DNA of 64,000 nucleotides from Acidimicrobiia bacterium (GTDB taxonomy: Bacteria; Actinomycetota; Acidimicrobiia; Spongiisociales; Spongiisociaceae), in assembly GCA_041576165.1 (NCBI GenBank), contig JBFGLM010000005.1, positions 64,001 through 128,000 on the forward strand, given 5' to 3'. The position numbers and the translations under genes are program-made. The notes under the pieces were generated by a model. It was not told where the DNA came from and ran no database searches. It was given only the letters and a program-made list of their open reading frames with translations. How positions within the stretch are numbered: the first letter of the stretch is position 1; every line of letters starts with the position of its first letter. Of this stretch, positions 1,845 through 41,573 are shown in pieces.

Positions 1845-2831
1845 TCACTCCCGTCTGGCGAGGACCAGCGCAAACCGACCGGCCGGGTCCGTGAACCAGC
1901 CGCGGGCCACCATCCCTGTGCCCGCCAACATTTCCACCACGCTCTGCTGGGTGAATTTGCAGCTGACTTCGGTGTGAATCATTTCGCCCGAGTCGATCTC
2001 AATCTCCATATTGAGGGCAACCACTCGAACAGTCACGGCCCGGCTGGCCCGCAGCCAGGCCTCCATACCGGCGAGCGTGGGATTCCAGCGGGGAACATGT
2101 TCGAAGACCTCGACTGGGAAATCCGCACCGAGCTCGCGGTTCACCACGTGCAGAATGTTCTTCGTGAATTCGGCCGTCACCCCCGTTGAGTCGTTGTAGG
2201 CGGCGACCATCGTGTCGACGTCCTTGACCAGATCGACTCCCAGCAGGAAGTGGTCGCCGGGTTGCAGAATCTGGCGCACCTGGCCCAGGAAGGCTCTTCG
2301 CTCCCGGGCCTGCAGGTTGCCGATTGTCGAACCGAGAAACATGGCGAGCCGCCGGCCCCGGCGGGGCACGGCAGGCAGGTCGCTGTGAAAGTCTCCGACG
2401 AGGCCCTCGATCTCGAGCCAGGTGTAGTCCACGCAGAGGTCTTTGGCCGCCGACAGCAGAGCGTCTTCGGAGATGTCCACGGGGACATAGCGAGTCCCGG
2501 CGCCGGTCCGACGCATCGCATCGATCAGCAGCCGGGTCTTGTCGGATGAGCCGGACCCGAGTTCCACCAGTTCGTGGGGACGGGCGAGCGCCATGATGTC
2601 GTCGGCGTGGACTTCGAGTATCTCGCGCTCCGCCCCGGTGAGGTAGTACTCGGGGAGTCGGGTAATGGCCTCGAACAGCTGCGACCCACGGGCGTCGTAG
2701 AAATACTTAGAGGGAATGGCTTTCGGAGTGCTCGTCAATCCCGACATGATGTCGGCGGCCATTTCCGTCCGGACGTCCTTTGGTTCGGTCAAATGGCGCA
2801 CCGTGACGGGGGCATCCCCAGTGGTCCTCAT
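1845..2831 (-). CDS. egtD: L-histidine N-alpha-trimethyltransferase
   Basis: PKAIPSKYFYDARGSQLFEAITRLPEYYLT, ELGSGSSDKT, FLGSTIGN, AYNDSTGVTAEF, TEVSCKF; last gene of the egt operon. Confidence 0.93.
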   Translation of the reverse strand: MRTTGDAPVTVRHLTEPKDVRTEMAADIMSGLTSTPKAIPSKYFYDARGSQLFEAITRLPEYYLTGAEREILEVHADDIMALARPHELVELGSGSSDKTRLLIDAMRRTGAGTRYVPVDISEDALLSAAKDLCVDYTWLEIEGLVGDFHSDLPAVPRRGRRLAMFLGSTIGNLQARERRAFLGQVRQILQPGDHFLLGVDLVKDVDTMVAAYNDSTGVTAEFTKNILHVVNRELGADFPVEVFEHVPRWNPTLAGMEAWLRASRAVTVRVVALNMEIEIDSGEMIHTEVSCKFTQQSVVEMLAGTGMVARGWFTDPAGRFALVLARRE

Positions 2832-3607
2832 TGTGCCCCCTCCATCGGGTGAACGGTTGTTGTGCCGGCCGTGAACTCGATGACATGACCTTCCGGCACT
2901 GGTACCCATCCGGACCGGTCGTCGTGCGGCTCCGAAGCCACCACGGTTGCTTGTCCGTCCGTGATGCAATACAGCGAGTTCGCGGGACCACCCACGCTGT
3001 GGCGGGCGGCGACGAACGTCGTCCCGTCGCCCACGACGAGATTGAGTGTTGCGGTCTCGCCGTGCTTTTCGAGCACGCTGCGCACGTCACTCAGTGTCGT
3101 CGCGACGGCGGTTCGGAGTGGCTCGCCGCCGCTGGCGTGCTGAGCAACGAGCAAGAACAAGACATTCGAGTCGGTGAACGCCTGCAGGCGAGCAAATAGT
3201 TCGGGTTCTAGGCGGGCCACGAGGTCCCGGCCGACGCCTCCACGAAATCCGTTGATGCGGCCGTTGTGGGCCCCGGCCAGCGCCCCCGCCACGAATGGCG
3301 CAACGCTGGCTGCACCAAAGGGAAGACCGCGCGTAGCGGACCGTACTGTCGCGAGCTGATGGGCGGACCGGATGCGAGGCGCCAGTGACACCAGGTTGGC
3401 GTCGCCCCACGGCGGCTGGGCGGTTGTGTAGCGGATCGGCTCAGAGTCGTTGCCGTCCCACCAGGCGACTCCGGTGCCGTCCACGTTCAGCGAGCCGTGC
3501 AAGAGCTCGCGTGGTGCGTAGGCCTGGTGTTCCAGGGAGTGGGGTCCGTCGAACAGCAGGGCGGACAGCGGAGCCGGTGGGCCGGCGTAGGCCGCGATTC
3601 GGCACAT
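2828..3607 (-). CDS. egtC: Gamma-glutamyl-hercynylcysteine sulfoxide hydrolase (class II glutamine amidotransferase fold)
   Basis: N-terminal MCR nucleophile, NVDGTGVAWW, VRSAT, HNG, VASEP; sits between egtB and egtD. Confidence 0.88.
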   Translation of the reverse strand: MCRIAAYAGPPAPLSALLFDGPHSLEHQAYAPRELLHGSLNVDGTGVAWWDGNDSEPIRYTTAQPPWGDANLVSLAPRIRSAHQLATVRSATRGLPFGAASVAPFVAGALAGAHNGRINGFRGGVGRDLVARLEPELFARLQAFTDSNVLFLLVAQHASGGEPLRTAVATTLSDVRSVLEKHGETATLNLVVGDGTTFVAARHSVGGPANSLYCITDGQATVVASEPHDDRSGWVPVPEGHVIEFTAGTTTVHPMEGAQ

Positions 3608-4926
3608 CAGGCGTGGTCCCACACGAGCCGGATTCCGGAGAAGATCTGGCGGCGAATCGGCCAGTCCCAGTTGCGGAACGTCCCCCGGGCCACCGAGCGG
3701 GAGGTGGCCCACGACGCCCCGCGTAGCACCCGGTAATCCTCGCCGAAGAAGACCTCCGAGTACTCGGGGTAGGGGAACGTGACATAACCCGGGTACGGCC
3801 GGAAAAAGGAACGCGTCCATTCGTACGTGTCGCCAATCATCTGCTCCACGCCGAAGGCCGACCTGCCTGCTGGGAAGCTGCCGACCGCCGCCGGGCCCCA
3901 GTTGCGCTGGTCGAGGTTGGCCACCTCCGAATGCGGTTGGTGCTCCCCCCACGGATACGTGCGGGCCCGCCCGGCCGTTGGATCCCACAACGCGGCCTTC
4001 TCCCACTCGGCTTCGGTCGGAAGCCGCGCGCCGACCCAGGTGGCCAAGGCTTGTGCTTCGTGAAAGTTGACGTGCTGGACCGGCTCAGCCGGGTCGAGCG
4101 AACGTGTGTGGCCGAAGCGACGGACCAGCCAACCGCCGGCCAGGTCGGGCATCCAGCCTTGCGGCGAGGTTGCATCTTCTCCGGCCAGCCATTCCCAGCC
4201 GTGGTCGGTCCATAGCTCACGGTTTTGATATCCCCCAGCCTCGACGAACAAGGCGAAGCGCCGGGCCGTGACAGGGAACCGCTCCATCCAGTAGGTGTCG
4301 AGATGTACGTCGTGAACCGGCCGCTCATTGTCGTAGGCGGCGGTGAGGTCGTCCGTGCCCATGCGAAACGGCCCGGCCGGTATTTCGATCCGCTCCTCAT
4401 CGTCGACCGTCGCTCGACGTGCCGGAGTGATCGCCTCGGCGACCGGCCGGTAGGGTTCGAGGTCGGTCCGCAGGTCGAGGGCCTGGAGGATGGTCTCCTG
4501 ATGCTGCGCTTCGTGTTGGACGATCATGTCGAACACATACCCGTCCCGGAGCAGCGGGTCATCTGAGCGGAAGTCAGCCCGGTCGATGATTGCGAGCACG
4601 TCGCCCCGCACCTCGTTCAGGTACTCGGTGGCCTCCGTCTGGTCGAGGATGGGTAGATCGCCACGACACCACCGCGGGTTGTCGAAGGGGTTGTACAGCT
4701 CGTCGAGTTGCGGATCGTGGGGATCCCGCCCGTCGAGCTCTCGCAACAACCAGAGTTCTTCAAAGTTGGCGATATGGCCCATGTCCCAGACAACCGGGCT
4801 CATCAGCGCGTTGTGCTGGCTGTGGAGGTCTTCGTAGCTGAGCGGGTGCACCATTCGGAATGTGCGGTCGCGCAACATCGTCAACTCGCCCCGTAGCCGA
4901 TGGCGACGCGTGTCGGTGGTGGTCAC
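3607..4926 (-). CDS. egtB: Ergothioneine sulfoxide synthase (DinB_2 + FGE-sulfatase)
   Basis: MSPVVWDMGHIA, QHEAQHQETIL iron-binding motif, RLPTEAEWEKAA, FRNWDWPIRRQIFSG. Confidence 0.93.
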   Translation of the reverse strand: MTTTDTRRHRLRGELTMLRDRTFRMVHPLSYEDLHSQHNALMSPVVWDMGHIANFEELWLLRELDGRDPHDPQLDELYNPFDNPRWCRGDLPILDQTEATEYLNEVRGDVLAIIDRADFRSDDPLLRDGYVFDMIVQHEAQHQETILQALDLRTDLEPYRPVAEAITPARRATVDDEERIEIPAGPFRMGTDDLTAAYDNERPVHDVHLDTYWMERFPVTARRFALFVEAGGYQNRELWTDHGWEWLAGEDATSPQGWMPDLAGGWLVRRFGHTRSLDPAEPVQHVNFHEAQALATWVGARLPTEAEWEKAALWDPTAGRARTYPWGEHQPHSEVANLDQRNWGPAAVGSFPAGRSAFGVEQMIGDTYEWTRSFFRPYPGYVTFPYPEYSEVFFGEDYRVLRGASWATSRSVARGTFRNWDWPIRRQIFSGIRLVWDHA

Positions 4927-6257
4927 AGTGTTCCTCTCTGCAAAAGGAGTTGGGTCTCGGAGCTGACCGTCCCAGATATCGGTTCGGCCCAGTGATCGAA
5001 CTGCTGGGCAGCAGGGAGCGTCGCCACGTCGGTCCCCGGGGAAGCAGCCCGTAGGGTGAACTGCTCCACAAAGGCTTCGGCTTCGCGCAGGTGATCGGTC
5101 CGCACTTTCGTCCGACACCGCTGCGCCCCATCGAGCGCCAGGCGCCACACCTGGAGGGCGGTGGAGAAGATTTCATGGTCGGCCAGCCCTCGACGGGCGG
5201 CCCGGATCCACAGCTCATGACAGCGCGGGCCGAACGGCTCTAGCACGGCCGAGATGGCCGCGAGGGTCGGTGGGTCGTAGAGCGCACCCACCAGCAACAC
5301 GACTGGGGCGGCCACCAGCCGCGCGGGTAGTGCATCGATTGCCCGGATTTCGAGCACACCCTGCCGCAGGCGCACCTCCGGGAACAGCGTGGTGAGGTGG
5401 TAGCGCAGGTCATCGGTTTCCGGTGGGGGATAGGAGCCCGGCGATGTGATCCAGTCGACCATCCGCACACCGGGAGGGAAGGGCCGGGAAGTGCCGTCAC
5501 GCCGCAGCATCATTACGTCGGCCGCCAAACACCAATCGATCAGGCCCTCGAGGCCGGGTCGGCCCAGATCGGGGAAGCCGGTCCGGGTGCGGTCGAGTGC
5601 CTGCCAGATCCGGGCGCGGCGCGAGGCCGCGGTGGGGGAGGAGGAGTTGCTGAAACTGGCAGTGAGAAAAGGGGAGAGGAGGTTGGCGGTTCGCCAGCGG
5701 GAGAGGAGATGCCGCCCGCCATCGAGGTTTATCTGAAGGGCGGCCGTGTTCCGCATCATGCCGGGGCCAGCATGGCCCTTGGATTGGAAGTAGTCGGCCA
5801 TGGCCTTGTAACGAGGCCCAGGCAGAAACTGAGGGATGTCGTCGGCGAAATGCCACGGGTCGGTGCCACATGCGACCACCTGGCGACCTAGCTGCGCGGC
5901 CGAGCGGGCCAGCGCCGTCCGAACGGTGCGCACGTCGTCGATCGCCTCGGACGCGGAGGGTTGAGGACGCGTAGCGTGCTCCAGCTGCGCTCCTGGTTCG
6001 AAGCTCATCTCCCCCATCGTTCCCAGATCGAGAATCGGATTGGCGTCCCGGTCGCTGGGGGTGGTTTGGCCCATGTGCGCAGCAATATGCACCGCACCGC
6101 CGGGTCCGAACAACCCCACGCGGTCTGCGCCGAACCCCGCCATTGCGAACACCTCAGCCTCGATTCCGACCAAGTCCGGACGAGTCGAGTCGCCTTCCAG
6201 CTCCTCGCGGATCAGCCGGCGAGCTGCCTCGATGGTGAGTTGTGTCTGGTGCTGCAT
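4923..6257 (-). CDS. egtA: Glutamate--cysteine ligase of the egt pathway
   Basis: GIEAE, SFEPGAQLE, PRYKAM, MMRNTAALQINLD, YHLTTLFPEVR, LEIRAID; first gene of the operon. Confidence 0.85.
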   Translation of the reverse strand: MQHQTQLTIEAARRLIREELEGDSTRPDLVGIEAEVFAMAGFGADRVGLFGPGGAVHIAAHMGQTTPSDRDANPILDLGTMGEMSFEPGAQLEHATRPQPSASEAIDDVRTVRTALARSAAQLGRQVVACGTDPWHFADDIPQFLPGPRYKAMADYFQSKGHAGPGMMRNTAALQINLDGGRHLLSRWRTANLLSPFLTASFSNSSSPTAASRRARIWQALDRTRTGFPDLGRPGLEGLIDWCLAADVMMLRRDGTSRPFPPGVRMVDWITSPGSYPPPETDDLRYHLTTLFPEVRLRQGVLEIRAIDALPARLVAAPVVLLVGALYDPPTLAAISAVLEPFGPRCHELWIRAARRGLADHEIFSTALQVWRLALDGAQRCRTKVRTDHLREAEAFVEQFTLRAASPGTDVATLPAAQQFDHWAEPISGTVSSETQLLLQRGTL

Positions 6258-38907: not shown

Positions 38908-41502
38908 GTGAAAGGCGGTGTGGAGACTCGTCTGGTCTACACCCTCAGCGTTGATCTGATCGAGTCAACGCTCGAGGGCATCGCCATGACTCAGCGCGAA
39001 CTGGACCGCTTCAATCGAGCGCTGGTGGCGCAGATCGAACCGCACCTCGACGCGCTGGGGTTCGAAGATCTACTCGCGAAGTTCACCGGAGACGGCTGGC
39101 TGCTCATGAGCCCGGAGCTGCACGACGCCGAACGCCTGTGCGCACTGGCTGCCATCATGAAGATCAGCTTTCATCGTGACATCGAGGAACGAACCGGACT
39201 GTCGCGGTCCCGGATCCCCGATTTGCGCATGGCGCTGTGCAGCGGCCGTGACATCCGCATTCACCTGTGGCAGGGCTCCTTTGACTGGGTGGGCGATAGT
39301 GCCCGGCGGGCCGCCCGCAGCGCTCAGTTTGCCTATCCGAACGAGGTGCTGATCGATGCTTCGGTCAATTCCCTCGTCATGCGCGACTTCGTGACCACCC
39401 AGATCGATCCGGGCGTGCGGCCTACTGCGCCCAAACGACTCGAGGAAGACATTCCGCTGTGGGCGCTGGGCGAGCTGCGGATCGAGGCGGCCGAGGACTG
39501 GGAAACCGCCGCGGCCTACGTGTACGCGCTCGGACAGGTGGGACGAACCGAAGACGCGGCCGCCGCCTCTTTACGCGCTGCGGACCGGCTGGAGTCCGAA
39601 GGCCTGCTCACCAACCCGGAGCCGGGTTCCACGATCGGGCGCTGGAACCGGCTGATCAGCACCGCTCCGACCTACGAGGCGGTACTCGACCTGTGGAGAC
39701 GGCTGGAAGAGTGCGGCGCCCGTCCCAACCTCGTCACCCTCAACACGCTGATCGAACGTTCCCCGTCCCATGACGAAATCGAGCGATGGACGGACACGCT
39801 GACTGAACGCGGGATCCGCCTCGACGCAACGACCTATCGATTGATGATCGGACGGGCGCCGGACTTCGACGCCGCGCTGAAGGTCTTGTCCGAGATGGAT
39901 TCGGCCGGGGTTGAGCCCGATGCGGAGATCCTCGAAGCGCTGGTTGTCCGGGCTCCGACCTACCGTGCCGCGGTCCGGCTCGTACGCATGATGCTCACCC
40001 GCGACGTGCGACCAACCGTCGAGATCTTCCGCCGGCTCGTCGCCAAGGCCCCCGGCTACGACGTGGCGATCGGGGTGCTGGACCTGATGGACCAGTGGCG
40101 GGTGGCGCCGGATGTTTCGATATTCAACCGACTCGTGCAGCGGGCTCCCTCCTACGACGATGCCGTGTCGTGGCTGGACACGATGGCCGGCCGCAGTGTC
40201 ATGCCCGACATCACCACCTTCAACACGCTCATTGCGCGGGCCGGGCGCTACGGCGCTGCGGTCGGCTGGCTGGACGACATGGAGGCGCGGGGGGTGCGCC
40301 CGGATGTCTCGACCTTCAACGTCTTGGTCTCCCGCGCCCCCGACTACGAAGTGGCGGTGGCGCTGCTGCGGCGCATGCCCGAGCGCGGAGTCCGCCCCAA
40401 CTCGGAAACGTACAAGACGCTGATCGGTCACGCTCCCCACTACGGGGCCGCAGTGGGCTGGCTCGACGAGATGCGCACGGAAGGCATCCGCCCCAACAAT
40501 GAGGTCTTCAAAGCCCTCATCGAAAAGGCACCCGATTACGACAGCGCCGTCCGGTGGCTCAACGACATGGGGCAGGCGGGAGTGGCTCCCAACACCGAGA
40601 CGTACCGCACGCTCATGTCCAAGGCTCCGGATCTCCTCGAAGCGCTGAACCTGCTGGACAACATGGCTGAGAACGGGGTGCAGGCCACGTCTGAGACGTT
40701 CAAGACCTTGGTTGGTTGCACGGGGTCAAGCGACGAGGCATTGGATGTGATCGCCAGGATGCCGGCGGCGGGTGTGAGAGCCACAGCCGAGATCTACCAG
40801 CCCCTCATAGCCGGGGCCGGATCGCTGCAAGAGGCGCGAGCCTGGCTGGATCACATGTATGCCAGCGGGGTGGAGCCCACGACGGAAACGCTGACCGCCG
40901 TTTTGCGGAAATCCTCGACGTACGACGAGGCGGAGGTCCTGCTCGACACGATGCGAACGAGTATCGAGCCCAACGAGGGCGCATACCGGGTGCTGGTCGA
41001 GTTGTCGCCGGACATGCTGACTGCGCAGGGGTGGGTGGAGGAGATGAGGGAAGAGGGCATGCGGCCCAGCGCCGCGATTCTCGAAGCGCTTCTGGGCAAG
41101 GATCCAGGAGACATCTCGGCCCAGGCGCTGCTGGATTGGTATCTCAGTCTCGACTATCACCCTGCCGGTCCTATGGCTGCTGCGATCGACTCCTATGTCG
41201 AGCGTGGCTCGGTCCAGGATGCGCTGCGGCTCACGCTCGACTATCCGCACCTGGAGGCCGCCCGGCAGGTGTTCGCCGATCACGGGGATGACGCGCTGGT
41301 GTACTTCAATGATGTGGTCAGCCGTGAACCGGGACACCCGAACGGTCGCTATGCCATGGGGCTGGCGCTGATCGAGGCGGGCAAGCCCCACGAAGCGCTG
41401 TCCCATCTCGAGGTCGCCATGGAACTCGCCCGGCCCGGGCCTCGGGTGGCGGCGCTCGACGAGATCATCCGCTCCATCCGCAGTCAGCTCGAAACACCGT
41501 GA
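38908..41502 (+). CDS. Class III nucleotidyl-cyclase-like domain + 15 PPR-like repeats (32 aa) + C-terminal TPR
   Basis: AGGAG then GTG at 38908; cyclase motifs SVDLIEST, KFTGDG, LRMALCSG, DWVGDSARRAAR, EVLID; repeats such as PD-ITTFNTLIARAGRYGAAVGWLDDMEARGVR; TPR-like YAMGLALIEAGKPHEALSHLEVAMEL. Confidence 0.8.
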   Translation: MKGGVETRLVYTLSVDLIESTLEGIAMTQRELDRFNRALVAQIEPHLDALGFEDLLAKFTGDGWLLMSPELHDAERLCALAAIMKISFHRDIEERTGLSRSRIPDLRMALCSGRDIRIHLWQGSFDWVGDSARRAARSAQFAYPNEVLIDASVNSLVMRDFVTTQIDPGVRPTAPKRLEEDIPLWALGELRIEAAEDWETAAAYVYALGQVGRTEDAAAASLRAADRLESEGLLTNPEPGSTIGRWNRLISTAPTYEAVLDLWRRLEECGARPNLVTLNTLIERSPSHDEIERWTDTLTERGIRLDATTYRLMIGRAPDFDAALKVLSEMDSAGVEPDAEILEALVVRAPTYRAAVRLVRMMLTRDVRPTVEIFRRLVAKAPGYDVAIGVLDLMDQWRVAPDVSIFNRLVQRAPSYDDAVSWLDTMAGRSVMPDITTFNTLIARAGRYGAAVGWLDDMEARGVRPDVSTFNVLVSRAPDYEVAVALLRRMPERGVRPNSETYKTLIGHAPHYGAAVGWLDEMRTEGIRPNNEVFKALIEKAPDYDSAVRWLNDMGQAGVAPNTETYRTLMSKAPDLLEALNLLDNMAENGVQATSETFKTLVGCTGSSDEALDVIARMPAAGVRATAEIYQPLIAGAGSLQEARAWLDHMYASGVEPTTETLTAVLRKSSTYDEAEVLLDTMRTSIEPNEGAYRVLVELSPDMLTAQGWVEEMREEGMRPSAAILEALLGKDPGDISAQALLDWYLSLDYHPAGPMAAAIDSYVERGSVQDALRLTLDYPHLEAARQVFADHGDDALVYFNDVVSREPGHPNGRYAMGLALIEAGKPHEALSHLEVAMELARPGPRVAALDEIIRSIRSQLETP
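39634..41070 (+). repeat. Array of 15 PPR-like repeats (96-nt/32-aa period; unit 14 is 31 aa)
   Basis: Manual alignment from IGRWNRLI to GMRPS; consensus xxT(F/Y)NxL(I/V)xxAPxYxxAxxWLxxMxxxG(V/I)xP(D/N/T). Confidence 0.85.
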
Positions 41503-41573
41503 TGGCGGCACCCGGCCGGGACCGATCCCCCGACCTGGCAGAACCCTCGGCGGGCGCGGAGGGTGAGCACGGC

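What the first reader, a model, noticed from the sequence alone, without database searches (positions are those of the whole stretch)
39634..41070. 32-aa short PPR-like unit with a readable, partly non-canonical code
Seen: the period is 32 aa rather than the canonical 35, with about 3 residues missing between the helices (LIxxAPxY). Position-5/last residue pairs, units 1-15: N/N, N/D, R/D, E/T, R/D, N/D, N/D, N/N, K/N, K/N, R/T, K/T, Q/T, T/N, R/S. Established plant code: N/D prefers U, N/N prefers C/U, T/N prefers A. Inference: units 1-2 and 6-8 would read pyrimidines. Units 9-12 form a distinct block (Glu at position 2, Lys/Arg at position 5) that fits no known code and may reflect a separate expansion with a new specificity or phosphate-backbone binding.
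Basis: partly seen in the sequence, partly recalled or inferred. Interest (0 to 1): 0.75.

Follow-up and report, generated by a model that had tools for sequence, protein, structure and literature searches.

The report
Short bacterial PPR repeats gating cyclase
A bacterial signalling enzyme carries a shortened form of the plant RNA-reading PPR repeat; relatives keep and vary the plant base-reading positions and are fused to immune-type effectors, which suggests that bacteria have their own sequence-reading sensors, although this particular copy has drifted away from the code.

Summary
Observation confirmed: 15 units, period 32 aa (unit 14 is 31), and all 15 5/last pairs as listed. They lie in an 864-aa protein (38908-41502): class III nucleotide cyclase, linker, repeats, TPR-like cap. 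The unit is a P-type PPR lacking residues 10-12. It belongs to a prokaryotic family: 177 of 206 retrieved proteins have 32-aa spacing, fused to the cyclase or to P-loop NTPases with SIR2, TIR, DUF4062, CHAT or protease domains. Outside the window's clade, 670 of 842 units carry the seven commonest plant codes. Among near-identical units of one array, positions 5 and last differ most (0.49 against 0.13 for surface positions; 44 of 50 proteins), like TALE RVDs. The window's Acidimicrobiia clade has left that regime: 15 fixed units, 109 of 294 units with common codes, 21 of 294 with a hydrophobic position 2. The units 9-12 block is real and conserved (Glu2 92 of 92, Lys/Arg5 89 of 92). It is not a separate expansion, and most likely an ion pair that does not read bases. 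Binding and cyclase activity are untested. I found no description of the 32-aa family in nine searches.

The parts
38908..41502 (+). Gene for the 864-aa cyclase-PPR32-cap protein (GTG start)
   Evidence: ORF. Start taken from the 98%-identical 864-aa homolog P0002. GC3 0.808 against 0.809 +/- 0.023 for 33 window ORFs, the gene included.
38923..39483 (+). Class III nucleotide cyclase domain (aa 6-192): metal Asp16 and Asp62, adenine-specifying Lys58 and Asp126, Arg107 and Arg137; Arg133 replaces the catalytic Asn
   Evidence: Model pLDDT 95. Z 20.4, rmsd 2.7 A over 187 residues to CyaB. Residue conservation in 85 homologs; roles assigned by motif position from recalled canonical cyclases. Homodimer score 0.74, best control 0.00.
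39484..39633 (+). Helical linker between cyclase and repeats (aa 193-242)
   Evidence: DSSP of the model; conserved in cyclase homologs.
39634..41070 (+). 15 PPR-derived units of 32 aa (unit 14, 40882-40974, is 31 aa)
40402..40785 (+). Units 9-12, conserved Glu2 / Lys-Arg5 block
   Evidence: Glu2 92 of 92 and Lys/Arg5 89 of 92 in 23 sequences. Position pair 2-5 ranks first of 496 by mutual information in orthologs.
41071..41499 (+). Conserved C-terminal TPR-like cap (aa 722-864) that travels with the repeat
   Evidence: Pfam TPR_19. A cap HMM hits 99 of 121 cyclase and 25 of 56 non-cyclase 32-aa proteins.

Best explanation
The protein is a one-component, sensor-gated adenylate cyclase of Acidimicrobiia, and its sensor is a prokaryotic 32-aa derivative of the P-type PPR. 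Shown: domain order, fold, homology of the unit to PPR, and cyclase residues. Strongly inferred: in the wider family the arrays are young and are rebuilt by duplication. They read a single-stranded nucleic acid, one unit per base, through positions 5 and last, with position 2 stacking and Lys10 standing in for Lys13. Binding switches on the fused output, either a cyclase dimer or a STAND-type NTPase with SIR2, TIR or protease. Inferred for this copy: the array froze at 15 units and lost the stacking residue, and it now recognises one fixed ligand through unit-specific groove residues. Units 1 and 6-8 keep Asn5. Units 9-12 carry a Glu2-Lys/Arg5 ion pair that fills the base pocket and reads no base; it serves as a protein, self or shape-recognition surface. 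Ligand binding to the solenoid would license cyclase dimer closure and cAMP synthesis. My odds by step: PPR origin 0.97; code-type nucleic-acid reading in the family 0.6; active cyclase 0.7; units 9-12 not base-reading 0.75.
For: Deletion mapped to P-type 10-12; VIA Z 26.4 to dPPR-U10. Non-ortholog units: position 5 N54/S18/T13/G5 %, last D43/N43/S6/T4 %. Their top seven pairs (ND, NN, SN, SD, TN, TD, NS) are the same seven as in land plants (PMC6468296) and cover 670 of 842 units; position 2 is hydrophobic in 560 and position 10 is K/R in 597 of 842. Mismatch among near-identical units of one protein: last 0.56, position 5 0.41, surface mean 0.125; higher in 44 of 50 proteins, Wilcoxon p 1e-8. 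Position 13, a helix cap with the same D/N/S/T alphabet, gives 0.09. At DNA level codons 32, 2 and 5 have the most amino-acid changes (59, 46, 44 of 110 pairs from 15 loci); synonymous changes at codons 5 and 32 (11, 5) are not raised. Effector fusions; Walker A-like motif before the repeats in 29 of 56 non-cyclase proteins. Window clade: fixed length, within-unit entropy at position 5 of 0.86 bits against 1.7-2.2 at outer-surface positions, Glu2 with K/R5 odds ratio 79, clade support 100/100.
Against: No binding or enzyme data. The superhelix differs from designer PPRs (rmsd 5.5-11 A). In the looser design (pairs chosen on core positions) position 5 did not differ from position 9 (0.46 vs 0.39, p 0.12). 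Position 32 or 5 was the top variable site in only about 17 of 48 proteins. Proteins are related, so p-values are optimistic. A 35-aa positive control had one protein and did not rank positions 5 and 35 first. Pooled entropy at 5 and last (2.2 and 1.8 bits) is below surface positions (3.1-3.6). Many cyclase members have only 2-5 units, short for sequence specificity. The catalytic Asn is Arg in 85 of 85. The one PPR-annotated immune receptor tested, PaAvs5-3, is activated by a phage protein (PMC12931631).
Confidence: 0.55

Rival explanations
1. One reading: the window array still reads about 15 nt of RNA. Units 1-2 and 6-8 read pyrimidines, and units 9-12 use a new Glu2/Lys-Arg5 code or bind the backbone.
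For: Asn5 is kept in units 1, 6, 7 and 8 (23, 23, 21, 23 of 23) and last Asp in units 2, 6 and 7 (22, 21, 23 of 23). K/R10 is in 192 of 294 units. KN gives a smear with C in designer PPRs.
Against: Hydrophobic position 2 in 21 of 294 units; RD and RS do not bind; acidic array (52 K+R against 71 D+E); Lys and Arg exchange freely at position 5 in units 10 and 12; Glu2 neutralises the charge.
Confidence: 0.17
2. The whole 32-aa family senses proteins, as TPR sensors of Avs receptors do. Positions 5 and last form an Asn/Asp ladder for peptide backbone, and their variation tunes protein recognition.
For: The repeat sits in the sensor slot of effector-NTPase-repeat proteins. Most STAND sensors are TPR-like (PMC13581612). 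PaAvs5-3, annotated with PPRs, is activated by the phage protein JADA. Asn ladders in TPR and ARM repeats bind peptides (recalled).
Against: Variation stays within the plant base-reading alphabet (N/S/T at 5; D/N/S last), with hydrophobic position 2 and basic position 10 retained. Protein-sensing surfaces would be expected to sample more chemistry. PaAvs5-3 also blocks the ssRNA phage PP7, and its repeat period was not checked.
Confidence: 0.22
3. The repeats are a structural spacer or autoinhibitory scaffold. Variation at 5 and last is neutral exchange among equivalent small polar residues during concerted evolution.
For: The last residue is also the N-cap of the next helix. N/D, N/S and N/T changes are single-base steps. 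Unit number varies from 2 to 17.
Against: The other N-cap (position 13) and ten free surface positions vary 2.5-4 times less among the same pairs in the stricter designs. Synonymous change at these codons is not raised. Groove residues are unit-specifically conserved in orthologs.
Confidence: 0.06

Closest known systems
P-class PPR motif (plant PPR10, designer dPPR/cPPR; PF01535, PF13041)
   Same: Helix-turn-helix solenoid and nearly the same consensus. In the wider family, the same seven commonest 5/last pairs, a hydrophobic position 2 and a lysine aligned to Lys13.
   Different: 32 aa, lacking positions 10-12, in pure arrays. Prokaryotic. Fused to signalling or immune outputs. The window clade has lost the stacking residue and has a Glu2/Lys-Arg5 block.
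Plant S1/S2 short PPR motifs (31 and 32 aa; PMC13041630)
   Same: Length; fifth-and-last numbering applies.
   Different: S motifs lack the position-13 lysine and occur in PLS triplets. Here the lysine is kept and the gap is at the end of helix A. That S motifs are shortened after helix B is recalled, not tested.
Avs5 / STAND receptors, PaAvs5-3 (PMC12931631)
   Same: Relatives have the effector-NTPase-PPR layout (SIR2, TIR, DUF4062, CHAT, trypsin, SMEK; weak nSTAND3 or NB-ARC hits).
   Different: The window protein has no NTPase and no PADLOC hit. The paper gives no repeat period or code analysis in the parts read. Whether PaAvs5-3 has 32-aa units was not checked.
Class III adenylate cyclases (CyaB, Rv1264, Rv1900c)
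   Same: Fold, metal aspartates, Lys/Asp specificity pair, catalytic Arg, predicted homodimer.
   Different: Invariant Arg for the transition-state Asn (Rv1900c has His and is active; PMC4886424). Below Pfam detection. PPR-type regulator.
Pycsar PycC cyclases
   Same: Class III fold (Z 15.7-16.0).
   Different: Adenine-type specificity residues, no conserved effector gene next door, not in defence islands.
TAL effectors (analogy, recalled)
   Same: Homogenised repeats that differ mainly at two specificity positions, with variable repeat number.
   Different: Unrelated sequence; the code residues are PPR 5/last, not adjacent RVDs.

Membership tests
P-class PPR | 35-aa period | tested here: not met
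   Period 32. 1191 of 1297 spacings are 32 in the 177 proteins with at least one such spacing (tiled with a 32-aa profile, so biased toward 32).
P-class PPR | Homologous helix-turn-helix solenoid | tested here: met
   Pfam PPR_2 E 2.9e-48; HMM alignment; Z 26.4, rmsd 8.8 A over 358 residues to 5i9f.
P-class PPR | 5/last residues drawn from the base-reading code (wider family) | tested here: met
   670 of 842 non-ortholog units.
P-class PPR | 5/last residues drawn from the common code (window clade) | tested here: not met
   109 of 294 ortholog units; 6 of 15 in the window protein.
P-class PPR | Hydrophobic position 2 clamping the base | tested here: not met
   Window clade 21 of 294; wider family 560 of 842, where it is met.
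P-class PPR | Lys13 binding phosphate | tested here: inconclusive
   K/R at position 10 aligns to Lys13 (597 of 842 and 192 of 294 units); its 3-D position could not be measured.
P-class PPR | Sequence-specific ssRNA binding | not testable with these tools
   Needs experiment.
Plant S-type PPR | No Lys13; PLS arrangement | tested here: not met
   Lysine retained; uniform 32-aa arrays (PMC13041630).
Class III nucleotide cyclase | Fold | tested here: met
   The top 25 rows are all class III cyclase or cyclase-like folds (Z 12.9-20.4), one of them an unannotated protein; GGDEF domains follow at Z 11 or less.
Class III nucleotide cyclase | Two metal aspartates, Lys/Asp specificity pair, catalytic Arg | tested here: met
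   D16 82, D62 85, K58 83, D126 80, R137 82 of 85; assignment by motif position.
Class III nucleotide cyclase | Transition-state Asn | tested here: not met
   Arg in 85 of 85 (the position was partly used to flag family members). Known active cyclases lack the Asn (PMC4886424).
Class III nucleotide cyclase | Homodimer | tested here: met
   Predicted only: score 0.74, best of 3 controls 0.00; mark reached by 20 of 30 solved pairs and 1 of 23 single chains; runs agree in at least 97% of contacts, pLDDT 90. May reflect likeness to solved cyclase dimers.
Class III nucleotide cyclase | Catalytic activity | not testable with these tools
   Needs assay.
Avs / STAND receptor (window protein) | STAND NTPase module | tested here: not met
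   None by Pfam, NCBIfam, PADLOC or the model.
Pycsar | Adjacent cyclic-nucleotide-sensing effector gene | tested here: not met
   No cNMP-binding domain listed among 102 neighbours from 50 of 61 loci or among the window genes scanned; no conserved neighbour.

The most novel reading that the evidence does not exclude
Bacteria and archaea have their own guide-free, programmable nucleic-acid receptors. These are 32-aa PPR arrays that rewrite their 5/last code by repeat duplication and selection, as TALEs do, to recognise RNA or ssDNA sequences, probably of phages. Binding triggers NADase, protease, nuclease or cyclase outputs. The unit is also a natural compact scaffold for designer RNA binders.
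Probability: 0.4. Interest if true: 0.92.

Novelty: new variant of a known kind. Interest (0 to 1): 0.76.

Why it matters
[quoted passage not shown] Here a uniform 32-aa form occurs in MAGs of 13 phylum-level groups, including archaea. It keeps the plant code alphabet, diversifies exactly the code positions, and occupies the sensor slot of immune-type and signalling proteins. That makes three things directly testable: sequence-specific RNA sensing by bacterial innate receptors, the direction of PPR transfer between domains, and whether the PPR code survives a one-turn deletion in helix A, which would give a scaffold 9% shorter. The window clade shows how such a reader can be repurposed.

Tried and rejected
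1. Separate expansion of units 9-12: rejected (the block ranks 31 of 715 four-unit subsets, but overlapping neighbour blocks are as alike or more so).
2. Defence-island setting: the window is metabolic. Only 6 of 50 loci had a defence-flavoured neighbour (TIR-WD40, TIR, Schlafen plus HEPN, methylase, Sacsin plus AAA_13, ADP-ribosylglycohydrolase).
3. Conserved partner gene or RNA: none. Neighbour clusters mostly link 2 loci, apart from generic ABC-transporter and dioxygenase families and repeat fragments. 98 flanks show only close-relative matches or repeat remnants. Rfam found nothing in the window and one tRNA in 14 of 61 loci.
4. Recent acquisition: GC3 matches the host.
5. Mutational hotspot at codons 5 and 32: synonymous change is not raised.
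6. Mobile carriage: no phage hit for the array; the only repeat hit on plasmids was a plant-type 35-aa PPR.
7. A single-sequence PDB search missed the cyclase. ESM Atlas hits were all under 0.9, leads only.
8. No Avs5 chain appeared among PDB hits for the SIR2 fusion P0126.
9. The 35-aa positive control was underpowered.
10. PF10592, PF18012 and similar hits inside the repeats are treated as repeat artefacts.
11. A term search of PMC2447327 returned nothing.
Left unchecked: organisms and names of the NTPase fusions, viral and metagenome contig collections, and all paper supplements.
Full report
OBSERVATION. The stretch is in frame in a long ORF. Autocorrelation peaks only at 32, at 1.48 against a best shuffle of -0.54. 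There are 15 units, unit 14 being 31 aa, and all 5/last pairs are as listed. A profile of homologs aligned to designer PPRs leaves out P-type residues 10-12 in each unit shown and aligns position 10 with Lys13. The AlphaFold2 model (pLDDT 95.1, pTM 0.80, 121 sequences) shows a 10-residue helix A and a 13-residue helix B. Its best structural matches are designer PPRs (Z 24.6-26.4, rmsd 5.5-11 A), so the hairpins agree but the superhelix may not.

THE PROTEIN. The 864-aa product (start from P0002) has an N-terminal domain that Pfam misses. Folded alone, it matches class III cyclases, best CyaB at Z 20.4 and rmsd 2.7 A. By motif position, both metal aspartates, the Lys/Asp adenine pair and the catalytic Arg are present and conserved in 80-85 of 85 homologs. 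The transition-state Asn is Arg in 85 of 85. Active cyclases without this Asn exist (PMC4886424, passages). A homodimer was predicted at 0.74 against a best control of 0.00. That mark was reached by 20 of 30 solved pairs and 1 of 23 single chains; runs agree in at least 97% of contacts at pLDDT 90; the pass may be from likeness to solved dimers. A TPR-like cap closes the array.

THE FAMILY. Searches returned 205 proteins, the best-scoring hits only (one search listed 150 of 6248). With the window protein, 177 of 206 have 32-aa spacing: 121 with the cyclase and 56 without. The remainder are fragments, 33-aa variants or 35-aa eukaryote-like PPRs. Of the 56, 29 have a Walker A-like motif before the repeats. 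Among 22 that I chose as likely fusions, Pfam finds TIR in 7, SIR2 in 5, SMEK in 2, and DUF4062, CHAT, trypsin and an alpha/beta hydrolase in one each, with NB-ARC, AAA_16 or weak nSTAND3 in three. The genome scan found 61 cyclase loci in MAGs of Acidimicrobiia, Armatimonadota, Chloroflexota, Planctomycetota, methanogen-related archaea and others. In a tree of 53 of 62 rows (short or motif-less ORFs dropped), the window groups with L001-L007 at 100/100, four of which are labelled Acidimicrobiia; 17 Armatimonadota form a second clade. The gene stands alone among changing housekeeping neighbours.

IS THERE A CODE? But they use a restricted alphabet. The seven commonest pairs are the seven commonest in land plants (PMC6468296, text parts 2-3 of 6) and cover 670 of 842 non-ortholog units. 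The sharper test compares near-identical units inside one protein. Pooled pairs at 80% identity differ at the last position in 327 of 631 and at position 5 in 289 of 630, next position 2 in 145 of 619. Weighting each protein once and excluding 5 and last from pair selection, the code positions differ at 0.45 against 0.18 for ten surface positions (50 of 65 proteins, 75% threshold), and at 0.49 against 0.13 (44 of 50, 85% threshold). Position 13, the other helix cap with the same alphabet, differs at 0.09-0.15. In DNA (110 pairs, 15 loci) codons 32, 2 and 5 lead in amino-acid changes; synonymous changes at codons 5 and 32 are not raised. Against: with pairs chosen on core positions, position 5 did not beat position 9 (p 0.12); 32 or 5 was the single most variable site in about 17 of 48 proteins; the proteins are not independent; the 35-aa control had one protein and was uninformative.

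TWO REGIMES. Scattered members have 1-17 detected units per gene (some genes truncated), 67% mean identity within arrays, common codes in 122 of 145 units and hydrophobic position 2 in 79. The Acidimicrobiia clade has 15 fixed units, 33% identity, 34 of 91 and 5 of 91. The Armatimonadota clade has 5 fixed units, 34% identity, 58 of 68 and 13 of 68, so it has lost the stacking residue but not the code alphabet (L004 was left out as split).

THE WINDOW ARRAY. In 23 sequences (window plus P0003-P0024; P0002 dropped as near-identical), position 5 is conserved per unit like core positions. Asn5 holds in units 1, 6, 7 and 8. Glu2 is invariant in units 9-12 (92 of 92), with Lys/Arg5 in 89 of 92, whereas position 2 is free in units 1-8. 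The 2-5 pair is the top covarying pair (Fisher odds ratio 79). The scaffolds of units 9-12 are no more alike than those of neighbouring blocks, so this is selection on groove residues, not a duplication burst. Val2 normally clamps the base and Lys13 binds phosphate (PMC4837458, one passage). RD and RS do not bind and KN is weak; KT, RT, ET and QT are not named in the parts read and may be in the unseen supplement. An i,i+3 Glu-Lys/Arg pair on the groove face, neutral overall, most simply occupies the pocket. This is inference: coordinates could not be inspected.

MECHANISM. Most likely a ligand binds the solenoid and lets the cyclase domains close into an active dimer that makes cAMP. In young arrays the ligand is probably single-stranded nucleic acid read by the code (0.6). 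In this copy it is a fixed ligand recognised largely outside the code.

LITERATURE. Nine searches found no description of a 32-aa prokaryotic PPR family, a cyclase-PPR fusion or code analysis in bacteria. The library lacks most subscription papers and no supplements were read, so this is not proof of absence. Prior mentions: PPRs annotated in PaAvs5-3, which blocks jumbo phages and ssRNA phage PP7 and is activated by the protein JADA (PMC12931631, section 9 and passages); HNH-PPR fusions in one sentence (PMC12738770, passage); a Legionella genome paper (PMC2824747, search listing only). The STAND survey PMC13581612 does not use the term PPR in its main text; its supplementary sensor clusters could include this repeat. 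Plant S2 motifs are also 32 aa but lack the lysine (PMC13041630, passages). PMC4029402 (passages) states that prokaryotes do not typically possess PPRs.

VERDICT. The feature is real: a new variant of a known kind. The specific reading of units 9-12 as a new expansion is not supported. Interest 0.76.

Noticed in passing
P0144, P0152, P0168; L058:7008-8078: A 33-aa variant of the repeat also exists, at least once fused to the same cyclase (P0152).
   Followed up: no
L001:5393-5827, L002:873-1382, L007:9883-10437: An ECF sigma factor lies next to the gene in 3 of the 7 closest loci (homologous in L001 and L002); none was seen beside the window gene.
   Followed up: partly
L011:8019-10025, L055:7977-10055, P0025, P0030: Dehalococcoidia-type arrays show a three-unit period of 5/last pairs (ND, NS, DN), i.e. 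amplification of three-unit blocks; DN is common here.
   Followed up: no
L004, L022, L040, L046, L052, L054, L059 (also L032, L044): Up to 9 of 61 homologous genes appear split within or after the repeats; pseudogenes or assembly errors.
   Followed up: no
P0027, P0028, P0031, P0032, P0062, P0078: A subgroup (including Ca. Aquicultor) has 122-aa spacings, i.e. inserts of about 90 aa in the array; P0027 and P0078 also have a degenerate cyclase motif.
   Followed up: no
L062:661-2821 (CP036489.1, Rahnella aquatilis plasmid): Plant-like 35-aa PPR sequence in two ORFs on a bacterial plasmid record; probably plant DNA or contamination.
   Followed up: partly
P0095, P0105, P0138, P0156, P0164: 32-aa arrays behind N-terminal regions that by eye resemble helix-turn-helix domains, without a P-loop motif; possibly regulators.
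   Followed up: no
window 41499-41504: The stop codon overlaps a possible start of the downstream luciferase-like monooxygenase; the linkage is not conserved in orthologs.
   Followed up: partly
window 1848-6257: Ergothioneine biosynthesis-like cluster (histidine methyltransferase, FGE-sulfatase/DinB, glutamate-cysteine ligase).
   Followed up: no
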